A program made the translations under genes and the position numbers. Positions 22,894-28,330 of a stretch of DNA of 64,000 nt are shown in pieces (the stretch's first letter is position 1; each line of letters begins with the position of its first letter). The DNA lies in NCBI RefSeq assembly GCF_003334315.1, contig NZ_QOWR01000001.1. One strand, 5' to 3'. The notes beneath the pieces were generated by a model, which saw nothing but the letters and a program-made list of their open reading frames with translations, ran no database searches and had not been told where the DNA came from. The DNA comes from Escherichia coli (GTDB lineage: Bacteria > Pseudomonadota > Gammaproteobacteria > Enterobacterales > Enterobacteriaceae).

Positions 22894-25437
22894 ATGAGCA
22901 AAGTCAGACTCGCAATTATCGGTAACGGTATGGTCGGCCATCGCTTTATCGAAGATCTTCTTGATAAATCTGATGCGGCCAACTTTGATATTACCGTTTT
23001 CTGTGAAGAACCGCGCATCGCTTATGACCGCGTACACCTCTCGTCTTACTTCTCTCACCACACCGCCGAAGAGCTGTCGCTGGTGCGCGAAGGCTTCTAC
23101 GAGAAACACGGCATCAAAGTTCTGGTCGGCGAACGCGCTATCACCATCAACCGTCAGGAGAAGGTGATTCACTCCAGCGCCGGACGTACCGTTTTTTATG
23201 ACAAGCTGATCATGGCAACCGGTTCCTACCCGTGGATCCCACCAATCAAAGGTTCTGATACTCAGGACTGCTTTGTCTATCGCACCATTGAAGACCTCAA
23301 CGCCATTGAATCCTGCGCCCGTCGCAGCAAACGCGGTGCCGTTGTTGGTGGCGGCCTGTTAGGTCTGGAAGCCGCTGGCGCGCTGAAAAACTTAGGTATT
23401 GAAACCCACGTTATCGAATTTGCCCCTATGCTGATGGCGGAACAGCTTGATCAGATGGGTGGCGAGCAGCTGCGTCGCAAAATCGAAAGTATGGGCGTGC
23501 GCGTTCACACCAGCAAAAACACCCTTGAGATTGTGCAGGAAGGTGTCGAAGCGCGTAAAACCATGCGTTTTGCCGACGGCAGCGAACTGGAAGTCGACTT
23601 TATCGTCTTCTCTACCGGTATCCGTCCGCGCGATAAGCTGGCAACCCAGTGTGGTCTGGACGTTGCTCCGCGTGGGGGTATTGTCATTAATGATTCCTGC
23701 CAGACTTCCGATCCGGATATCTACGCCATCGGTGAATGCGCAAGCTGGAGCAACCGTGTATTTGGTCTGGTAGCACCAGGCTACAAAATGGCGCAGGTCG
23801 CCGTTGACCATATTCTCGGTAGCGAAAACGCCTTTGAAGGTGCTGACCTTAGCGCCAAGCTGAAACTGCTGGGCGTAGACGTAGGCGGTATTGGTGATGC
23901 GCACGGTCGCACGCCTGGCGCACGTAGCTACGTTTACCTCGACGAAAGCAAAGAGATCTACAAACGCCTGATTGTCAGCGAAGACAACAAAACCCTGCTC
24001 GGTGCGGTACTGGTGGGCGATACCAGCGACTACGGCAACCTGCTGCAACTGGTGCTGAATGCTATCGAGCTGCCGGAAAACCCGGATTCTCTGATTCTGC
24101 CGGCGCACTCGGGTAGCGGTAAGCCGTCTATCGGTGTTGATAAACTGCCGGACAGCGCGCAAATCTGCTCCTGCTTCGACGTCACCAAAGGTGATCTGAT
24201 TGCTGCCATCAACAAAGGCTGCCACACAGTTGCGGCGCTGAAAGCTGAAACCAAAGCGGGTACTGGCTGCGGTGGCTGTATCCCGCTGGTCACTCAGGTA
24301 CTGAACGCGGAACTGGCGAAACAGGGCATCGAAGTTAACAACAACCTGTGCGAACACTTTGCTTATTCGCGTCAGGAACTGTTCCATTTGATCCGCGTTG
24401 AAGGCATTAAAACCTTCGAAGAACTGCTGGCGAAACACGGCAAAGGCTACGGTTGTGAAGTTTGTAAACCAACCGTCGGTTCGCTGCTGGCCTCCTGCTG
24501 GAACGAATACATTCTGAAGCCGGAACATACTCCGCTGCAGGATTCTAACGACAACTTCCTCGCTAACATCCAGAAAGACGGCACCTACTCGGTGATCCCG
24601 CGTTCTCCGGGCGGTGAAATCACCCCGGAAGGGCTGATGGCAGTGGGTCGTATCGCGCGTGAATTTAATCTCTACACCAAAATCACCGGCTCCCAGCGCC
24701 TGGCGATGTTTGGCGCACAGAAAGACGATCTGCCGGAAATCTGGCGTCAGCTGATTGAAGCCGGTTTCGAAACCGGTCATGCCTATGCAAAAGCACTGCG
24801 TATGGCGAAAACCTGCGTGGGTAGCACCTGGTGCCGCTACGGTGTTGGCGATAGCGTCGGCCTCGGCGTGGAACTGGAAAACCGCTACAAAGGCATCCGT
24901 ACGCCGCACAAAATGAAGTTCGGTGTCTCCGGCTGTACCCGTGAATGTTCAGAAGCTCAGGGTAAAGACGTGGGTATTATCGCCACTGAAAAAGGCTGGA
25001 ACCTGTATGTTTGCGGTAACGGCGGCATGAAACCGCGTCATGCGGATCTGCTGGCAGCGGATATCGATCGCGAAACGCTGATCAAATATCTCGACCGCTT
25101 CATGATGTTCTACATCCGTACCGCCGACAAACTGACGCGTACCGCACCGTGGTTAGAAAACCTTGAAGGCGGCATTGATTACCTGAAAGCAGTGATCATT
25201 GACGACAAACTGGGGCTGAACGCTCATCTGGAAGAAGAGATGGCGCGCCTGCGTGAAGCGGTAGTGTGTGAGTGGACTGAAACGGTCAATACGCCGTCTG
25301 CGCAGACTCGCTTCAAACACTTCATCAACAGCGACAAGCGTGACCCGAACGTGCAGATGGTGCCAGAGCGCGAACAGCACCGTCCGGCAACGCCATATGA
25401 ACGTATCCCGGTAACTCTGGTGGAGGACAACGCATGA
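22894..25437 (+). CDS. nirB: NADH-dependent nitrite reductase large subunit
   Basis: 847-aa ORF with FAD/NAD Rossmann motif (IIGNGMVG), Cys clusters and siroheme domain; FNR site upstream. Confidence 0.96.
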   Translation: MSKVRLAIIGNGMVGHRFIEDLLDKSDAANFDITVFCEEPRIAYDRVHLSSYFSHHTAEELSLVREGFYEKHGIKVLVGERAITINRQEKVIHSSAGRTVFYDKLIMATGSYPWIPPIKGSDTQDCFVYRTIEDLNAIESCARRSKRGAVVGGGLLGLEAAGALKNLGIETHVIEFAPMLMAEQLDQMGGEQLRRKIESMGVRVHTSKNTLEIVQEGVEARKTMRFADGSELEVDFIVFSTGIRPRDKLATQCGLDVAPRGGIVINDSCQTSDPDIYAIGECASWSNRVFGLVAPGYKMAQVAVDHILGSENAFEGADLSAKLKLLGVDVGGIGDAHGRTPGARSYVYLDESKEIYKRLIVSEDNKTLLGAVLVGDTSDYGNLLQLVLNAIELPENPDSLILPAHSGSGKPSIGVDKLPDSAQICSCFDVTKGDLIAAINKGCHTVAALKAETKAGTGCGGCIPLVTQVLNAELAKQGIEVNNNLCEHFAYSRQELFHLIRVEGIKTFEELLAKHGKGYGCEVCKPTVGSLLASCWNEYILKPEHTPLQDSNDNFLANIQKDGTYSVIPRSPGGEITPEGLMAVGRIAREFNLYTKITGSQRLAMFGAQKDDLPEIWRQLIEAGFETGHAYAKALRMAKTCVGSTWCRYGVGDSVGLGVELENRYKGIRTPHKMKFGVSGCTRECSEAQGKDVGIIATEKGWNLYVCGNGGMKPRHADLLAADIDRETLIKYLDRFMMFYIRTADKLTRTAPWLENLEGGIDYLKAVIIDDKLGLNAHLEEEMARLREAVVCEWTETVNTPSAQTRFKHFINSDKRDPNVQMVPEREQHRPATPYERIPVTLVEDNA

Positions 25438-25760
25438 GCCAGTGGAAAGACATCTGCAAAATCGATGACATCCTGCCTGAAACCGGCGTCTGCGCGCTGT
25501 TAGGTGACGAGCAGGTAGCAATTTTCCGCCCGTATCATAGCGACCAGGTGTTTGCGATCAGCAACATCGACCCGTTCTTCGAGTCCAGCGTGCTGTCACG
25601 CGGGCTGATTGCGGAACACCAGGGCGAGCTGTGGGTCGCCAGCCCGCTGAAAAAACAGCGTTTTCGCTTAAGTGATGGCTTGTGCATGGAAGACGAACAG
25701 TTTTCCGTCAAACATTACGAAGCACGAGTGAAAGACGGCGTGGTGCAGCTGCGCGGTTAA
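25434..25760 (+). CDS. nirD: Nitrite reductase small subunit (Rieske-like)
   Basis: 108-aa ORF; ATGA overlap with nirB stop. Confidence 0.9.
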   Translation: MSQWKDICKIDDILPETGVCALLGDEQVAIFRPYHSDQVFAISNIDPFFESSVLSRGLIAEHQGELWVASPLKKQRFRLSDGLCMEDEQFSVKHYEARVKDGVVQLRG

Positions 25761-25885
25761 TGTTTTAACGGGAGGCGCAATGCCTCCCCTTTTTGCATGG
25801 TCCTGTAATGACCTTCGGTATATTGCAGGACATTTTTTAAACTTTTTGTTTTATTTTTTGTTTTTATTTTTTAAAGGATAATCAA

Positions 25886-26692
25886 ATGTTTACAGACACT
25901 ATTAATAAGTGTGCGGCTAATGCTGCGCGCATTGCACGCCTGTCGGCAAATAACCCGCTCGGCTTTTGGGTCAGCTCCGCCATGGCGGGCGCATATGTGG
26001 GTCTTGGGATCATCCTGATTTTCACGCTCGGTAATTTGCTCGACCCGTCCGTACGTCCGCTGGTGATGGGCGCGACCTTTGGTATCGCCTTAACGCTGGT
26101 GATTATCGCCGGTTCTGAACTGTTCACCGGACACACCATGTTCCTCACCTTTGGGGTAAAAGCGGGCAGCATCAGCCACGGGCAAATGTGGGCAATCCTG
26201 CCGCAAACCTGGCTGGGTAACCTGGTCGGTTCCGTCTTCGTTGCCATGCTCTATAGCTGGGGCGGCGGTAGCCTGCTGCCGGTAGATACCAGCATCGTTC
26301 ACTCCGTCGCGCTGGCTAAAACCACTGCACCGGCAATGGTACTGTTCTTCAAAGGTGCATTGTGTAACTGGCTGGTTTGCCTGGCTATCTGGATGGCGCT
26401 GCGCACTGAAGGGGCGGCGAAATTTATCGCTATCTGGTGGTGTCTGCTGGCATTTATCGCGTCCGGCTACGAGCACTCCATCGCTAACATGACGCTGTTC
26501 GCCCTCTCCTGGTTCGGCAACCACAGCGAAGCCTACACGCTGGCGGGTATTGGTCATAACCTGCTGTGGGTGACGCTGGGTAATACTTTATCAGGTGCCG
26601 TATTCATGGGATTGGGTTATTGGTATGCTACGCCGAAAGCGAATCGTCCGGTTGCGGACAAATTTAATCAAACTGAAACGGCTGCCGGTTAA
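25886..26692 (+). CDS. nirC: Nitrite transporter (formate/nitrite transporter family)
   Basis: 268-aa multi-TM ORF downstream of nirD. Confidence 0.9.
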   Translation: MFTDTINKCAANAARIARLSANNPLGFWVSSAMAGAYVGLGIILIFTLGNLLDPSVRPLVMGATFGIALTLVIIAGSELFTGHTMFLTFGVKAGSISHGQMWAILPQTWLGNLVGSVFVAMLYSWGGGSLLPVDTSIVHSVALAKTTAPAMVLFFKGALCNWLVCLAIWMALRTEGAAKFIAIWWCLLAFIASGYEHSIANMTLFALSWFGNHSEAYTLAGIGHNLLWVTLGNTLSGAVFMGLGYWYATPKANRPVADKFNQTETAAG

Positions 26693-26710
26693 TTACTAAG
26701 GGGTTTTTAC

Positions 26711-28084
26711 GTGGATCATTTGCCTATATTTTGCCAATTACGCGATCGCGACTGTCTGATTGTCGGCGGTGGTGATGTCGCGGAACGCAAAGCAAGGTTG
26801 CTGTTAGACGCAGGCGCTCGCTTAACGGTGAATGCATTAGCGTTTATTCCACAGTTCACCGCATGGGCAGATGCAGGCATGTTAACCCTCGTCGAAGGGC
26901 CATTTGATGAAAGCCTTCTCGACACCTGCTGGCTGGCGATTGCAGCGACGGATGATGACGCGCTTAACCAGCGCGTCAGCGAAGCCGCTGAAGCTCGTCG
27001 CATCTTCTGTAACGTAGTCGATGCGCCGAAAGCCGCCAGCTTTATTATGCCGTCGATTATTGACCGCTCACCGCTCATGGTCGCGGTCTCCTCTGGCGGC
27101 ACCTCTCCGGTTCTGGCACGCCTGTTGCGCGAAAAACTCGAATCACTGCTGCCGTTGCATCTGGGCCAGGTAGCGAAATACGCCGGGCAATTACGCGGGC
27201 GAGTGAAACAACAGTTCGCCACGATGGGTGAGCGTCGCCGTTTCTGGGAGAAATTGTTCGTTAACGATCGCCTGGCGCAGTCGCTGGCAAACAACGATCA
27301 GAAAGCCATTACTGAAACCACCGAACAGTTAATCAACGAACCGCTTGACCATCGCGGTGAAGTGGTGCTGGTTGGTGCAGGTCCGGGCGATGCCGGGCTG
27401 CTGACGCTGAAAGGACTGCAACAAATTCAGCAGGCAGATGTGGTGGTCTACGACCGTCTGGTTTCTGACGATATTATGAATCTGGTACGCCGCGATGCTG
27501 ATCGCGTTTTCGTCGGCAAACGCGCGGGATACCACTGTGTACCGCAGGAAGAGATTAACCAGATCCTGCTGCGGGAAGCGCAAAAAGGCAAACGCGTGGT
27601 GCGGCTGAAAGGTGGCGATCCGTTTATTTTTGGCCGTGGTGGCGAAGAGCTGGAAACACTGTGCAACGCGGGTATTCCGTTCTCGGTGGTTCCGGGTATT
27701 ACCGCAGCTTCTGGTTGCTCTGCCTATTCGGGTATTCCACTCACGCATCGCGATTATGCCCAGAGCGTACGCTTAATTACCGGACACTTAAAAACCGGTG
27801 GCGAGCTGGACTGGGAAAACCTGGCGGCAGAAAAACAGACGCTGGTGTTCTATATGGGGTTGAATCAGGCCGCGACTATTCAGCAAAAGCTGATTGAACA
27901 CGGTATGCCTGGCGAAATGCCGGTGGCAATTGTCGAAAACGGAACGGCAGTCACGCAGCGCGTGATTGACGGTACGCTCACGCAACTCGGTGAACTTGCT
28001 CAGCAAATGAACAGTCCATCGCTAATTATTATTGGTCGGGTTGTTGGCCTGCGCGATAAACTGAACTGGTTCTCCAACCATTAA
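26711..28084 (+). CDS. cysG: Siroheme synthase
   Basis: 457-aa ORF starting at GTG 26711 (MDHLPIF...); N-terminal Rossmann domain plus C-terminal methyltransferase domain. Confidence 0.9.
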
Positions 28085-28330
28085 TTTAACCCGGGCCAGA
28101 GAATTCTGGCCTTCTTAATGACTCTTTTTATATATTCAGCAAATAAAACATAGCCCCTTAATAAATATTATCTGCTAATGGGTTATATTCACCGTTACAG
28201 CGACTTACAAAATTAAGTCATTCGCTCACTGACGCCAATTAAATATTCCTGTATCGTTCTTAACGAGCAGTCTGCTTATATTCATATAATCAATGAATAT
28301 TAATTAATATATAATACATAGGGAATGTAA

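What the first reader, a model, noticed from the sequence alone, without database searches (positions are those of the whole stretch)
25761..25885. Phased T-tracts in the nirD-nirC spacer
After a hairpin (GGGAGGCGCAATGCCTCCC followed by CTTTTTG at 25769-25796) the spacer has TTTTTTAAACTTTTTGTTTTATTTTTTGTTTTTATTTTTTAAAGG, with T-runs at roughly helical-turn spacing, a strong composition switch inside an otherwise GC-balanced operon. Candidates are an attenuator plus internal promoter for nirC-cysG, or intrinsically bent DNA.
Basis: seen in the sequence. Interest (0 to 1): 0.3.

Follow-up and report, generated by a model that had tools for sequence, protein, structure and literature searches.

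The report
U-rich nirC leader after nirD terminator
The T-runs between nirD and nirC of E. coli are real and extreme, but they are not bent DNA or a promoter: they are the U-rich untranslated leader of nirC, lying between an operon-internal terminator and the binding site of the small RNA NarS, a control region already worked out in Salmonella.

Summary
A hairpin (25770-25788, tail CTTTTTG) and six T-runs (25833-25872) sit in the 125-nt nirD-nirC spacer of E. coli. This is the most T-rich 45 nt of the 64-kb window (32/45 T). The runs repeat about every 6 nt, as degenerate TTTTTR units, not every 10.5. A wedge model predicts the array core to be straight.

The spacer corresponds to the Salmonella region studied by Wang et al. 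2020 (PMC7038943): an operon-internal intrinsic terminator plus uridine track, RNase E processing into nirBD and nirC-cysG, no primary nirC start site, and NarS pairing at the nirC Shine-Dalgarno.

- Hairpin 1 shows covariation across 26 enterobacterial sequences.
- E. coli NarS has a perfect 15-nt complement to 25873-25887, which starts right after the last T-run.
- T exceeds A on the coding strand in 40 of 43 nirC leaders, which points to an RNA-level role.
- Published E. coli K-12 data show a 24-fold RNA drop across the junction, 6-fold with Rho inhibited.
- No sigma-70 match was found.

Escherichia-specific details are a second terminator-like hairpin (25800-25831) and the hexamer regularity.

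Verdict: the attenuator is supported; the promoter and bent-DNA readings are not. Low novelty.

The parts
25434..25760 (+). nirD coding sequence (stop TAA at 25758-25760)
   Evidence: ORF list. Identical to K-12 b3366.
25770..25788 (+). Hairpin 1: GC-rich stem-loop of the operon-internal intrinsic terminator/attenuator (7-8 bp, dG -13.6 kcal/mol)
   Evidence: Terminator scan hit and fold. Across 26 enterobacterial sequences 97% of cells are paired, 4 of 7 pairs show changes on both sides, and 0 of 500 shuffles reach the observed covariation. The Salmonella counterpart was tested by deletion (PMC7038943).
25789..25795 (+). Short U tail of hairpin 1 (CUUUUUG)
   Evidence: Sequence. Most loci that keep the GGGAGGC-type hairpin have 4-7 T in the first 8 nt after it.
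25800..25831 (+). Hairpin 2: Escherichia-specific second stem-loop (dG -16.2 kcal/mol), followed by A + U6. Terminator-like, or a 5' protective stem for the processed nirC mRNA.
   Evidence: Folds. Kept in E. albertii, E. whittamii and other Escherichia with different inner-stem sequences, dG -9.7 to -17.8, each followed by a T-rich tail. Absent from other genera.
25833..25872 (+). T/U array: six T-runs forming degenerate (TTTTTR)n hexamers. This is the U-rich, G-poor untranslated leader of nirC.
   Evidence: Seven RN|WUU RNase E consensus matches fall in 25828-25872 against 0.8 expected (motif from PMC5222698). T-rich leaders occur in most nirC-bearing genera. Array length is unchanged in 5424 of 5426 E. 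coli genomes.
25851..25860 (+). Predicted cis anti-Shine-Dalgarno segment UUAUUUUUUG, pairing with 25872-25881 (hypothesis only)
   Evidence: Partition-function folding gives P(SD unpaired) of 0.01, against 0.15 for leaders shuffled with the same composition and 0.57 for random leaders. A recurrent UAUUU/UGUUU partner appears in other genera.
25873..25887 (+). NarS sRNA target: AAAGGATAATCAAAT, covering the nirC Shine-Dalgarno and the first two bases of the start codon
   Evidence: Perfect 15-nt complement to E. coli K-12 NarS (b4813), found only once in the 64-kb window. The pairing was demonstrated in Salmonella, where the footprint covers -12 to +1 (PMC7038943).
25886..26692 (+). nirC coding sequence (nitrite transporter)
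25914..25914 (+). Reported peak position of a Rho-dependent termination region in K-12 (MG1655 3497031). The resolution is that of 800-nt windows.
   Evidence: PMC7815308 supplementary file 2: untreated 586 reads upstream and 24 downstream; with BCM 920 and 149; Rho score 3.95; p = 6e-12. Coordinates mapped.

Best explanation
The nirD-nirC spacer is a compound post-transcriptional control region that works on the RNA, and the T-tracts are its U-rich leader.

Proposed order of events:
1. Transcription from the nirB promoter meets a conserved intrinsic terminator/attenuator directly after nirD (hairpin 1 plus a short U tail). In Escherichia it then meets a second hairpin followed by U6. Most transcripts therefore end as nirBD. 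The hairpins also protect the nirBD 3' end.
2. Read-through RNA carries a 40-nt, G-poor U-rich stretch, (UUUUUR)n. This stretch is the tail of hairpin 2. It is also a ribosome-free entry and cleavage zone for RNase E, since every unit matches RN|WUU, and cleavage there would yield a processed nirC-cysG mRNA. It is probably also a landing platform for Hfq and/or ribosomal protein S1, immediately 5' of the ribosome-binding site.
3. The Hfq-dependent sRNA NarS, derived from the narK 3' UTR, pairs with the 15 nt that begin right after the last U-run. This blocks nirC translation and destabilises nirC-containing mRNA. Rho adds polarity when nirC is poorly translated.

What is shown here: the anatomy, the conservation and covariation of hairpin 1, the NarS complementarity, the strand-specific T-richness across genera, and the RNA drop across the junction in published E. 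coli data.

What is shown elsewhere, in the Salmonella counterpart: terminator function, RNase E dependence, absence of a primary nirC start site, NarS pairing, and the requirement of the stem plus U track for NarS regulation.

What is inferred: that the E. coli array is the positional equivalent of the Salmonella uridine track, and which protein (RNase E, Hfq or S1) uses it.
For: - Locus identity: E. coli nirBDC-cysG; the spacer is present in 5426 of 5426 complete genomes.
- Hairpin 1: terminator scan hit, covariation, and a GC hairpin plus T-run after nirD in most nirC-bearing genera.
- Whole-spacer RNA fold: z = -5.3 against shuffles.
- Hairpin 2 is conserved in Escherichia with a T-rich tail.
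- NarS: a perfect 15-nt complement at 25873-25887, unique in the window. narS is annotated in K-12, and its 3' part is found in 5415 of 5426 E. coli genomes.
- Salmonella experiments (PMC7038943):
  - Northern blots show nirBD at 2.8 kb and nirC-cysG at 2.5 kb.
  - All nirC 5' ends map in the U-rich region.
  - The nirC-cysG species is lost in rne-ts.
  - Deleting the stem and U track lowers nirBD and raises nirC-cysG.
  - The same deletion cuts NarS repression from about 30-fold to about 5-fold.
  - The paper cites RIL-seq support for NarS-nirC pairing in E. coli.
- E. coli K-12 DirectRNA-seq: 586 versus 24 reads across the junction, 920 versus 149 with bicyclomycin (PMC7815308).
- RNA-level signature: mean T 0.52 against A 0.20 in the 40 nt before the SD, with T above A in 40 of 43 loci. 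Where an ERIC-like repeat is inserted, the T-rich tract stays next to hairpin 1.
- RNase E motif density: 7 against 0.8 expected.
- A/U-rich, G-poor sequences upstream of SDs are known S1-binding enhancers or standby sites (PMC2176067).
Against: - No E. coli 3'-end or 5'-end map of this spacer under nir-inducing conditions was available. The curated aerobic Term-seq list has no 3' end here.
- The tail of hairpin 1 has only five U's, so its intrinsic efficiency is unknown. Part of the polarity is Rho-dependent.
- Hfq-CLIP gave no peak in the Salmonella spacer. The authors attribute this to low expression.
- The RNase E motif enrichment follows automatically from T-richness, so it is not independent evidence.
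- The primary sequence of the T-rich leader is not conserved between genera, and two E. coli strains tolerate insertions of 30-36 nt. Any requirement is therefore compositional and loose.
Confidence: 0.75

Rival explanations
1. Internal promoter: the AT-rich spacer contains a promoter, with the T-tracts acting as an UP-like element, that transcribes nirC-cysG independently of the nirB promoter.
For: The region is 83-88% A+T, and AT-rich DNA often holds promoter-like hexamers. A separate 2.5-kb nirC-cysG RNA exists in Salmonella.
Against: No sigma-70-like site at the scan threshold on either strand in 25300-26800. In Salmonella the nirC 5' ends are multiple, lie in the U-rich region, and the nirC-cysG species disappears when RNase E is inactivated while the full-length RNA accumulates. 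In aerobic E. coli only 24 reads fall in the 800 nt downstream, against 586 upstream. The known secondary promoter of the operon is the cysG promoter inside nirC.
Confidence: 0.04
2. DNA-level element: intrinsically bent or unusually rigid A/T-tract DNA that binds nucleoid proteins (H-NS, Fis, IHF). It would act as a roadblock or boundary and help Rho stop transcription in both directions.
For: The highest A+T content in the window (53 of 60). RNA drops 22- to 24-fold on both strands at this spot, and both drops are partly relieved by bicyclomycin. Moderate predicted curvature, 13 degrees per turn (92nd percentile), at the 5' edge of the array.
Against: The tract period is about 6 bp, so successive bends largely cancel. 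The resultant at 10.5 bp is 0.21, and the array core is predicted straight at 2-7 degrees per turn, whereas a phased A6 control gives 27. The wedge parameters were recalled from memory, so only the relative result should be trusted. A DNA-level property should be indifferent to strand, yet T exceeds A on the coding strand in 40 of 43 genera and species. No binding data were found.
Confidence: 0.08
3. Non-functional slippage product: the hexamer array is a neutral microsatellite that drifted to T-richness in an untranslated spacer. Only the hairpin and the SD/NarS box matter.
For: Degenerate TTTTTR repeat units. Two strains carry (TTTTTA)n expansions of 30-36 nt with intact genes. The leader sequence is not alignable between genera, and the spacer accepts REP and ERIC-like insertions.
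Against: T-richness of the leader recurs in lineages whose sequences are unrelated, and it is strand-specific. Array length is the same in 5424 of 5426 E. coli genomes despite its slippage-prone sequence. In Salmonella, deleting the stem together with the U track changes both transcript pattern and NarS control. That deletion does not separate the stem from the U track.
Confidence: 0.12
4. Cis anti-Shine-Dalgarno: a segment of the U array (25851-25860) pairs with the purine-rich SD box and masks the nirC ribosome-binding site. The U track would then itself be a translational repressor, displaced by or competing with NarS and S1.
For: Predicted P(SD unpaired) is 0.01, against 0.15 for leaders shuffled with the same composition and 0.57 for random leaders. 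A UAUUU/UGUUU partner recurs in many genera. In Salmonella-type spacers the ERIC-like hairpin brings the U track next to the SD. This is consistent with the U track acting as a cis repressor, and acting at a distance, in Salmonella.
Against: The helices are A-U and G-U only, so they are weak and easily melted by S1. The cross-genus effect is modest: mean accessibility is 0.25 against 0.35 for shuffles, lower in 34 of 46 related sequences. Any U-rich leader will tend to pair with a purine-rich SD. There is no predicted temperature response between 25 and 42 C. No probing data cover this segment.
Confidence: 0.2

Closest known systems
Operon-internal nirD terminator, uridine track and NarS target of Salmonella enterica nirBDC-cysG (Wang, Chao, Matera, Gao, Vogel 2020, NAR; PMC7038943)
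   Same: Same genes and the same position directly after the nirD stop. Nearly the same hairpin (GGGAGGCGCAAYGCCTCCC) followed by T's. A T-rich stretch after it. The same SD box, AAGGATAATCAAATG, complementary to the NarS seed.
   Different: In E. coli the spacer is 125 nt and the U-rich stretch abuts the NarS site. In the Salmonella enterica subsp. arizonae sequence examined here a dispersed ERIC-like repeat of about 120 nt separates the two, which matches the roughly 200 nt reported for Salmonella. Escherichia has an extra hairpin (25800-25831), and its U stretch is a regular hexamer array of 75-78% T. None of the functional tests were done in E. coli.
Intrinsic (Rho-independent) terminators used as operon-internal attenuators
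   Same: A GC-rich stem-loop followed by a T-run, placed between cistrons, with lower RNA levels downstream.
   Different: The U tail of hairpin 1 is short (5 U), and part of the polarity is Rho-dependent. Two hairpin-plus-U units lie in tandem.
A/U-rich S1-binding translational enhancers and standby sites upstream of Shine-Dalgarno sequences (for example the rnd U-rich sequence and boxA-type enhancers; PMC2176067)
   Same: A G-poor, U-rich stretch directly 5' of the SD of a gene that must initiate independently, 125 nt after the previous stop codon.
   Different: No translation data exist for nirC. Here the stretch is predicted to pair with the SD rather than keep it open.
Phased A-tract bent DNA (kinetoplast-type, upstream curved promoter elements)
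   Same: Several A/T runs of 4-6 bp lying close together.
   Different: The period is about 6 bp, not 10-11 bp, and predicted curvature is low.
FourU RNA thermometers (runs of U pairing with the SD; recalled from memory: Salmonella agsA)
   Same: U-runs predicted to pair with AGGA of the SD through U-A and U-G pairs.
   Different: No predicted opening between 25 and 42 C. No known link between nirC and temperature.

Membership tests
Intrinsic terminator / operon-internal attenuator | GC-rich stem-loop immediately followed by a U-run on the transcribed strand | tested here: met
   Hairpin 1 at 25770-25788 has 6 GC pairs, dG -13.6, and tail CTTTTTG. Hairpin 2 at 25800-25831 has dG -16.2 and tail ATTTTTT.
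Intrinsic terminator / operon-internal attenuator | The structure is maintained in evolution (compensatory changes) | tested here: met
   97% of cells paired, 4 of 7 pairs with changes on both sides, 21 such cells, and 0 of 500 shuffles reaching the observed score. Slid controls give 55-66% paired.
Intrinsic terminator / operon-internal attenuator | RNA 3' ends at the U-run and reduced downstream transcription, independent of Rho | tested here: inconclusive
   Published E. coli data show 586 versus 24 reads across the junction and still 920 versus 149 with bicyclomycin, but at 800-nt resolution. There is no curated Term-seq 3' end in aerobic cultures. Deletion of the Salmonella counterpart supports terminator function.
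NarS sRNA target site | Complementarity between the conserved NarS seed and the nirC SD/start region | tested here: met
   15 consecutive Watson-Crick pairs, 25873-25887 against K-12 NarS. This is the only complement of 13 nt or more in the window.
NarS sRNA target site | NarS is present in the same species | tested here: met
   narS is annotated as b4813 in K-12. Its 3' part is found in 5415 of 5426 E. coli genomes. The narK locus lies outside this window.
NarS sRNA target site | Hfq-dependent repression of NirC synthesis by NarS | not testable with these tools
   Shown in Salmonella. For E. coli only RIL-seq chimeras are available, as cited in PMC7038943.
RNase E processing zone | Single-stranded AU-rich RNA with RN|WUU motifs | tested here: met
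   7 motif matches in 45 nt against 0.8 expected, tied for the densest in the window (motif). The enrichment follows from T-richness. Mean P(unpaired) of the array is 0.49.
RNase E processing zone | RNase E-dependent 5' ends in vivo | not testable with these tools
   Shown for Salmonella by 5' RACE and an rne-ts strain.
Phased A-tract bent DNA | A/T tracts repeated in phase with the helical repeat (10-11 bp) | tested here: not met
   Start spacings are 10, 6, 5, 7 and 6. The resultant is 0.21 at 10.5 bp against 0.62-0.69 at 6-6.5 bp.
Phased A-tract bent DNA | High predicted curvature or anomalous gel mobility | tested here: not met
   The wedge model gives 2-7 degrees per turn in the core and 13 at the 5' edge. 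The window's 99th percentile is 18.8 and a phased A6 control gives 27. Gel mobility cannot be tested here.
Sigma-70 promoter | -35 and -10 hexamers with 16-18 bp spacing | tested here: not met
   0 sites on either strand in 25300-26300 and in 25600-26800.
Sigma-70 promoter | Primary (triphosphate) 5' end downstream | not testable with these tools
   Salmonella 5' RACE found multiple nirC 5' ends in the U-rich region, read by the authors as processed ends of the operon transcript. No E. coli start-site table could be read.
A/U-rich S1 translational enhancer | A/U-rich, G-poor sequence directly upstream of the SD | tested here: met
   25833-25872 holds 32 T, 5 A, 2 G and 1 C. The general property is described in PMC2176067.
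A/U-rich S1 translational enhancer | Stimulates translation; binds S1 | not testable with these tools
   No data found.
Contingency (phase-variable) microsatellite | Frequent repeat-number variation among strains | tested here: not met
   Only 2 of 5426 complete E. coli genomes carry an expanded array; all others listed have the standard length. One sampled strain has a single extra T.
FourU-type RNA thermometer | U-run:SD helix that melts within the physiological temperature range | tested here: not met
   Pairing is predicted, but P(SD unpaired) stays at 0.00-0.01 from 25 to 42 C. This is an in-silico result only.

The most novel reading that the evidence does not exclude
The U array may not be just a passive tail. 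It may contain a cis anti-SD segment, 25849-25860 UUUUAUUUUUUG, which is a wobble-degenerate copy of the NarS seed GAUUAUCCUUUG. This segment would keep the nirC ribosome-binding site closed.

E. coli and S. enterica subsp. diarizonae would then show the uninterrupted layout, presumably ancestral, in which the U track abuts the NarS/30S site. In Salmonella and Citrobacter an inserted ERIC-like palindrome folds back on itself and restores that juxtaposition.

This would explain how a U track about 200 nt away is needed for NarS control, a question Wang et al. 2020 left open. It would also make the hexamer copy number, expanded in strains A4 and 04-00955, a tuning knob for nitrite uptake.
Probability: 0.18. 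Interest if true: 0.45.

Novelty: already known. Interest (0 to 1): 0.2.

Why it matters
The spacer decides how much nitrite transporter is made relative to nitrite reductase from one operon, which protects the cytoplasm from nitrite during nitrate respiration.

Assigning the E. coli T-tracts to the known terminator/U-track/NarS module removes a false lead (bent DNA or a promoter). It also shows that E. coli has the compact, uninterrupted version of the module. That makes E. coli a simpler system than Salmonella for asking what the U track does: Hfq platform, RNase E entry site, S1 standby site or anti-SD. In Salmonella an ERIC-like repeat separates the parts.

Beyond that the finding is ordinary.

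Tried and rejected
- Rfam scan of 25300-26300 at E up to 10 gave only sub-threshold chance hits: sroE at 22 bits against a gathering score of 51, and IsrM at 18 against 376. No known RNA family matches.
- Sigma-70 scans found nothing. A manual look for an FNR box around ATCAA at 25881-25885 found a left half-site matching only 2 of 5.
- The curvature model rejected the phased-bend idea.
- RNAduplex with full-length NarS and a 170-nt target gave a meaningless end-to-end duplex. I redid it with the 3' 70 nt and an exact-complement search.
- The phase-variation idea was rejected by population data.
- The fourU thermometer idea was rejected in silico.
- Literature dead ends:
  - Harborne 1992 and Thomason 2015 are not held.
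  - No supplementary text is held for Melamed 2016, Dar & Sorek 2018 or Wang 2020.
  - The search for the historical 'nirE' ORF found nothing relevant.
  - The EHEC HnrS preprint mentions nirBD only as indirectly regulated genes.

Full report
**What is there**

The window is E. coli chromosome. The genes are nirB (22894-25437), nirD (25434-25760), nirC (25886-26692) and cysG (26711-28084), all on the + strand. The 125-nt spacer is present in all 5426 complete E. coli genomes searched.

Reading the spacer 5' to 3':
- Hairpin 1, GGGAGGCG-CAA-TGCCTCCC, at 25770-25788, followed by CTTTTTG.
It is followed by A and T6.
- Six T-runs between 25833 and 25872.
- The box AAAGGATAATCAA and the nirC ATG.

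The whole spacer RNA folds far better than shuffled versions, with z = -5.3.

Yes for composition.
- GC falls to 0.167 in 25820-25879.
- 32 of 45 bases are T, the highest count in the 64 kb. The next best is 25 for T on this strand and 26 for A, and Markov simulations reach at most 28.
- Six T-runs fall within 45 nt, against at most three anywhere else.

No for the claim of roughly helical-turn spacing.
- The run starts are 10, 6, 5, 7 and 6 nt apart.
- Tandem Repeats Finder calls a period-6 TTTTTG unit, with 13 as the double unit.
- The tract-centre resultant is 0.62-0.69 at 6-6.5 bp but 0.21 at 10.5 bp.
- A Bolshoy/Trifonov-type wedge model predicts 2-7 degrees per turn in the array core. 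The window median is 6.6. It predicts 13 degrees per turn at the 5' edge, which is only the 92nd percentile. A phased A6 control gives 27 and (TTTTTG)20 gives 0.2.
- The wedge parameters were recalled from memory, so I use the result only relative to these controls.

The array is therefore a degenerate hexanucleotide microsatellite, not a phased bend.

**What is already known about this spacer**

Wang et al. 2020 (PMC7038943) dissected the same spacer in Salmonella.
- Northern blots show full-length RNA at 5.4 kb, nirBD at 2.8 kb, nirC-cysG at 2.5 kb and cysG at 1.4 kb.
- 5' RACE finds no primary end for nirD, and multiple nirC 5' ends, all in the uridine-rich region. The authors read these as processing of the operon transcript.
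- The nirC-cysG species disappears and full-length RNA accumulates when RNase E is inactivated.
- Deleting the stem and U track lowers nirBD and raises nirC-cysG. Unexpectedly, it also reduces repression by the sRNA NarS from about 30-fold to about 5-fold.
- NarS is cut from the narK 3' UTR and depends on Hfq. It forms a 14-bp duplex over the nirC Shine-Dalgarno, with a footprint from -12 to +1.
- The paper cites RIL-seq as support for the same pair in E. coli.
- The authors leave open how a U track about 200 nt from the NarS site can matter, and suggest Hfq binding.

**Does E. coli have the same parts?**

Hairpin 1 is the same element.
- In 80 enterobacterial loci fetched with NirD, most loci that keep nirC have a GC hairpin plus T-run directly after the nirD stop.
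- On 26 homologous hairpins, 97% of cells pair, four of seven pairs show changes on both sides (for example A-U to G-C at the fourth pair in 10 sequences), and no shuffle of 500 reaches the observed covariation. Slid controls pair at 55-66%.

The NarS site is the same.
- narS is annotated in K-12 as b4813.
- Its seed, ATTTGATTATCCTTT, is the perfect complement of window 25873-25887. This is the only complement of 13 nt or more in the window.
- The NarS 3' part is found in 5415 of 5426 E. coli genomes.
- The NarS site begins at the base immediately after the last T-run.

**Where the T array fits**

Spacer length varies from 67 to 402 nt across genera. Two blocks are conserved: hairpin 1 with its T's, and the SD box AGGATAATCA. 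The middle is variable.
- In the 43 loci without an ERIC-like insert, the 40 nt before the SD average 52% T and 20% A. T exceeds A in 40 of the 43.
- This holds in Leclercia, Silvania, Kosakonia, Huaxiibacter, Buttiauxella and Cedecea, although their sequences are not alignable.
- Escherichia is the extreme case at 68-78% T.
- In S. enterica subsp. arizonae, several Citrobacter and Phytobacter, a roughly 120-nt repeat sits between the T-rich stretch and the SD. That repeat is dispersed, with a median of 4 copies per E. coli genome at unrelated loci, and resembles ERIC (name from memory). The T-rich stretch stays with hairpin 1.
- S. enterica subsp. diarizonae lacks the insert and has an 81-nt spacer with the T-rich stretch running up to the SD.

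The E. coli T array is therefore the positional equivalent of the Salmonella uridine track, uninterrupted and more regular. The consistent excess of T over A on the coding strand argues for a role in the transcript rather than in duplex DNA.

Genera that lack nirC between nirD and cysG (Enterobacter, Kluyvera, Lelliottia and others) lack the array.

**Evidence from E. coli itself**

Adams et al. 2021 (PMC7815308, supplementary file 2) list a Rho termination region whose best position is MG1655 3497031 (+). That maps to window 25914, 28 nt into nirC.
- Untreated cells: 586 reads in the 800 nt upstream and 24 in the 800 nt downstream.
- With bicyclomycin: 920 and 149. The Rho score is 3.95 and p = 6e-12.
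- There is thus a 24-fold drop across the junction. About 6-fold persists without Rho, which is consistent with intrinsic termination and/or processing and decay. About 4-fold is Rho-dependent, which is consistent with an untranslated leader and poor nirC translation.
- The resolution is coarse. The curated aerobic Term-seq list has no 3' end in the spacer.
- The low downstream signal argues against a constitutive promoter in the spacer. No sigma-70-like site is found on either strand.

**Most likely mechanism**

1. Hairpin 1 attenuates transcription and protects the nirBD 3' end. In Escherichia, hairpin 2 with its U6 probably does the same. Hairpin 2 is kept in all Escherichia species sampled, with different inner-stem sequences, dG from -9.7 to -17.8, and a T-rich tail each time.
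2. The U array is the ribosome-free leader of read-through RNA. Every RUUUUU unit matches the RNase E core motif RN|WUU (PMC5222698), giving 7 matches against 0.8 expected. This enrichment is not independent of T-richness. The leader fits the multiple RNase E-dependent 5' ends seen in Salmonella.
3. The array is probably also the binding platform for Hfq, as the Salmonella authors proposed, and/or for ribosomal protein S1, which binds A/U-rich, G-poor sequences upstream of SDs (PMC2176067). I cannot separate these.
4. NarS pairs with 25873-25887 and shuts off nirC.

Steps 1 and 4 rest on direct sequence tests here plus experiments on the Salmonella counterpart. Steps 2 and 3 are inference.

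**A less ordinary reading that is not excluded**

Partition-function folding predicts that 25851-25860 (UUAUUUUUUG) pairs with 25872-25881 (UAAAGGAUAA).
- P(SD unpaired) is 0.01, against 0.15 ± 0.13 for leaders shuffled with the same composition and 0.57 for random leaders. It does not change between 25 and 42 C.
- The segment 25849-25860 resembles the NarS seed, with C replaced by U. U still pairs with G as a wobble.
- In 46 enterobacterial leaders the SD is less accessible than in shuffles in 34 cases (mean 0.25 against 0.35). The partner is often a UAUUU or UGUUU 20-35 nt upstream.
- In the ERIC-bearing spacers the partner lies about 160 nt upstream (up to about 240 nt in one Citrobacter), across the predicted long ERIC-like hairpin.

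This could explain the action at a distance reported for Salmonella. However, the helices are A-U and G-U only, the sequences are related, and any U-rich leader tends to pair with a purine-rich SD. I give it about 0.2.

**Population data**

The array is stable in length. Using the expanded allele of strain A4 as the query, only A4 (+30 nt) and 04-00955 (+36 nt) carry (TTTTTA)n expansions among 5426 genomes. Both also share a C-to-T change in hairpin 1. One sampled strain has a single extra T. The array is therefore not a phase-variable locus. The expansions show that extra units are tolerated.

**Verdict**

- The hairpin-plus-T-tract observation is real, but the phasing is not.
- The promoter and bent-DNA halves are not supported.
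- The feature is the E. coli version of a known operon-internal terminator, U-track and NarS-target module. It has two species-specific details: a second hairpin and a regular hexamer array abutting the NarS site.
- Novelty is low. The main value is that E. coli offers a compact form of the module for testing what the U track does.

Noticed in passing
window 25738, minus strand (MG1655 3496855): Adams et al. 2021 list a Rho-dependent region antisense to the end of nirD: 262 reads upstream and 12 downstream, against 405 and 66 with bicyclomycin. An antisense RNA over the 5' part of nirC therefore also stops at the spacer, which makes the spacer look like a boundary in both directions. No sigma-70 match for its promoter was found in 25600-26800.
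   Followed up: partly
L014:1887-2007 (S. enterica subsp. arizonae); also L015, L019, L020, L024, L065, L073: A repeat of about 120 nt is inserted between the T-rich stretch and the nirC SD. It is dispersed, with a median of 4 copies per E. coli genome at unrelated loci such as near nudB, and it folds as a long imperfect hairpin. It resembles ERIC/IRU (name from memory). It accounts for the roughly 200 nt between the U track and the NarS site in Salmonella.
   Followed up: partly
L013, L016, L017, L021, L022, L025, L026, L030-L032, L034 (Citrobacter spp.): REP-like palindromes (GCCTGATAAGCG.., GCCGGATGGCGGC..) are inserted in the same spacer, between hairpin 1 and a shorter T-rich pre-SD stretch.
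   Followed up: no
L036-L042, L047-L049, L051-L053, L055-L058, L060-L064, L067, L072, L076, L082, L083: In Enterobacter, Kluyvera, Lelliottia, Pseudocitrobacter and others, nirD is followed by cysG with no nirC in between. These loci lack the T array, and most also lack the GGGAGGC hairpin. A few keep it or a variant of it (L035 Intestinirhabdus, L053 Lelliottia nimipressuralis, L072, L083).
   Followed up: partly
L002:488-643 (strain A4) and L089:70-230 (strain 04-00955): Only these two of 5426 complete E. coli genomes have the array expanded, by 30 and 36 nt of TTTTTA units. Both also carry a C-to-T change that turns one G-C pair of hairpin 1 into G-U.
   Followed up: yes
window 25798-25809: A three-codon ORF, ATG GTC CTG TAA, overlaps the 5' arm of hairpin 2. 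Early papers named a small 'nirE' ORF between nirD and nirC (from memory; the papers are not held). There is no sign that it is a gene.
   Followed up: no
window 22725 and 22892: The wedge model puts two of the ten highest predicted curvature peaks of the window (26.5 and 23.8 degrees per turn) in the nirB promoter and start region. That region, unlike the nirD-nirC spacer, would be a candidate for bent DNA.
   Followed up: no
L088:2338-2521 (E. coli K-12 narS): E. coli NarS is 184 nt as annotated. It contains a piece resembling the same ERIC-like repeat (CCCCAGTCAC...CCTGGGA), which matches the 170-nt insertion noted by Wang et al. The sRNA and its target spacer have thus each picked up this repeat, but in different lineages.
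   Followed up: no
window 28289-28348 and 28112-28171: After the T array, these are among the most A+T-rich 60-nt stretches of the window (51 and 47 of 60). They lie just downstream of cysG.
   Followed up: no
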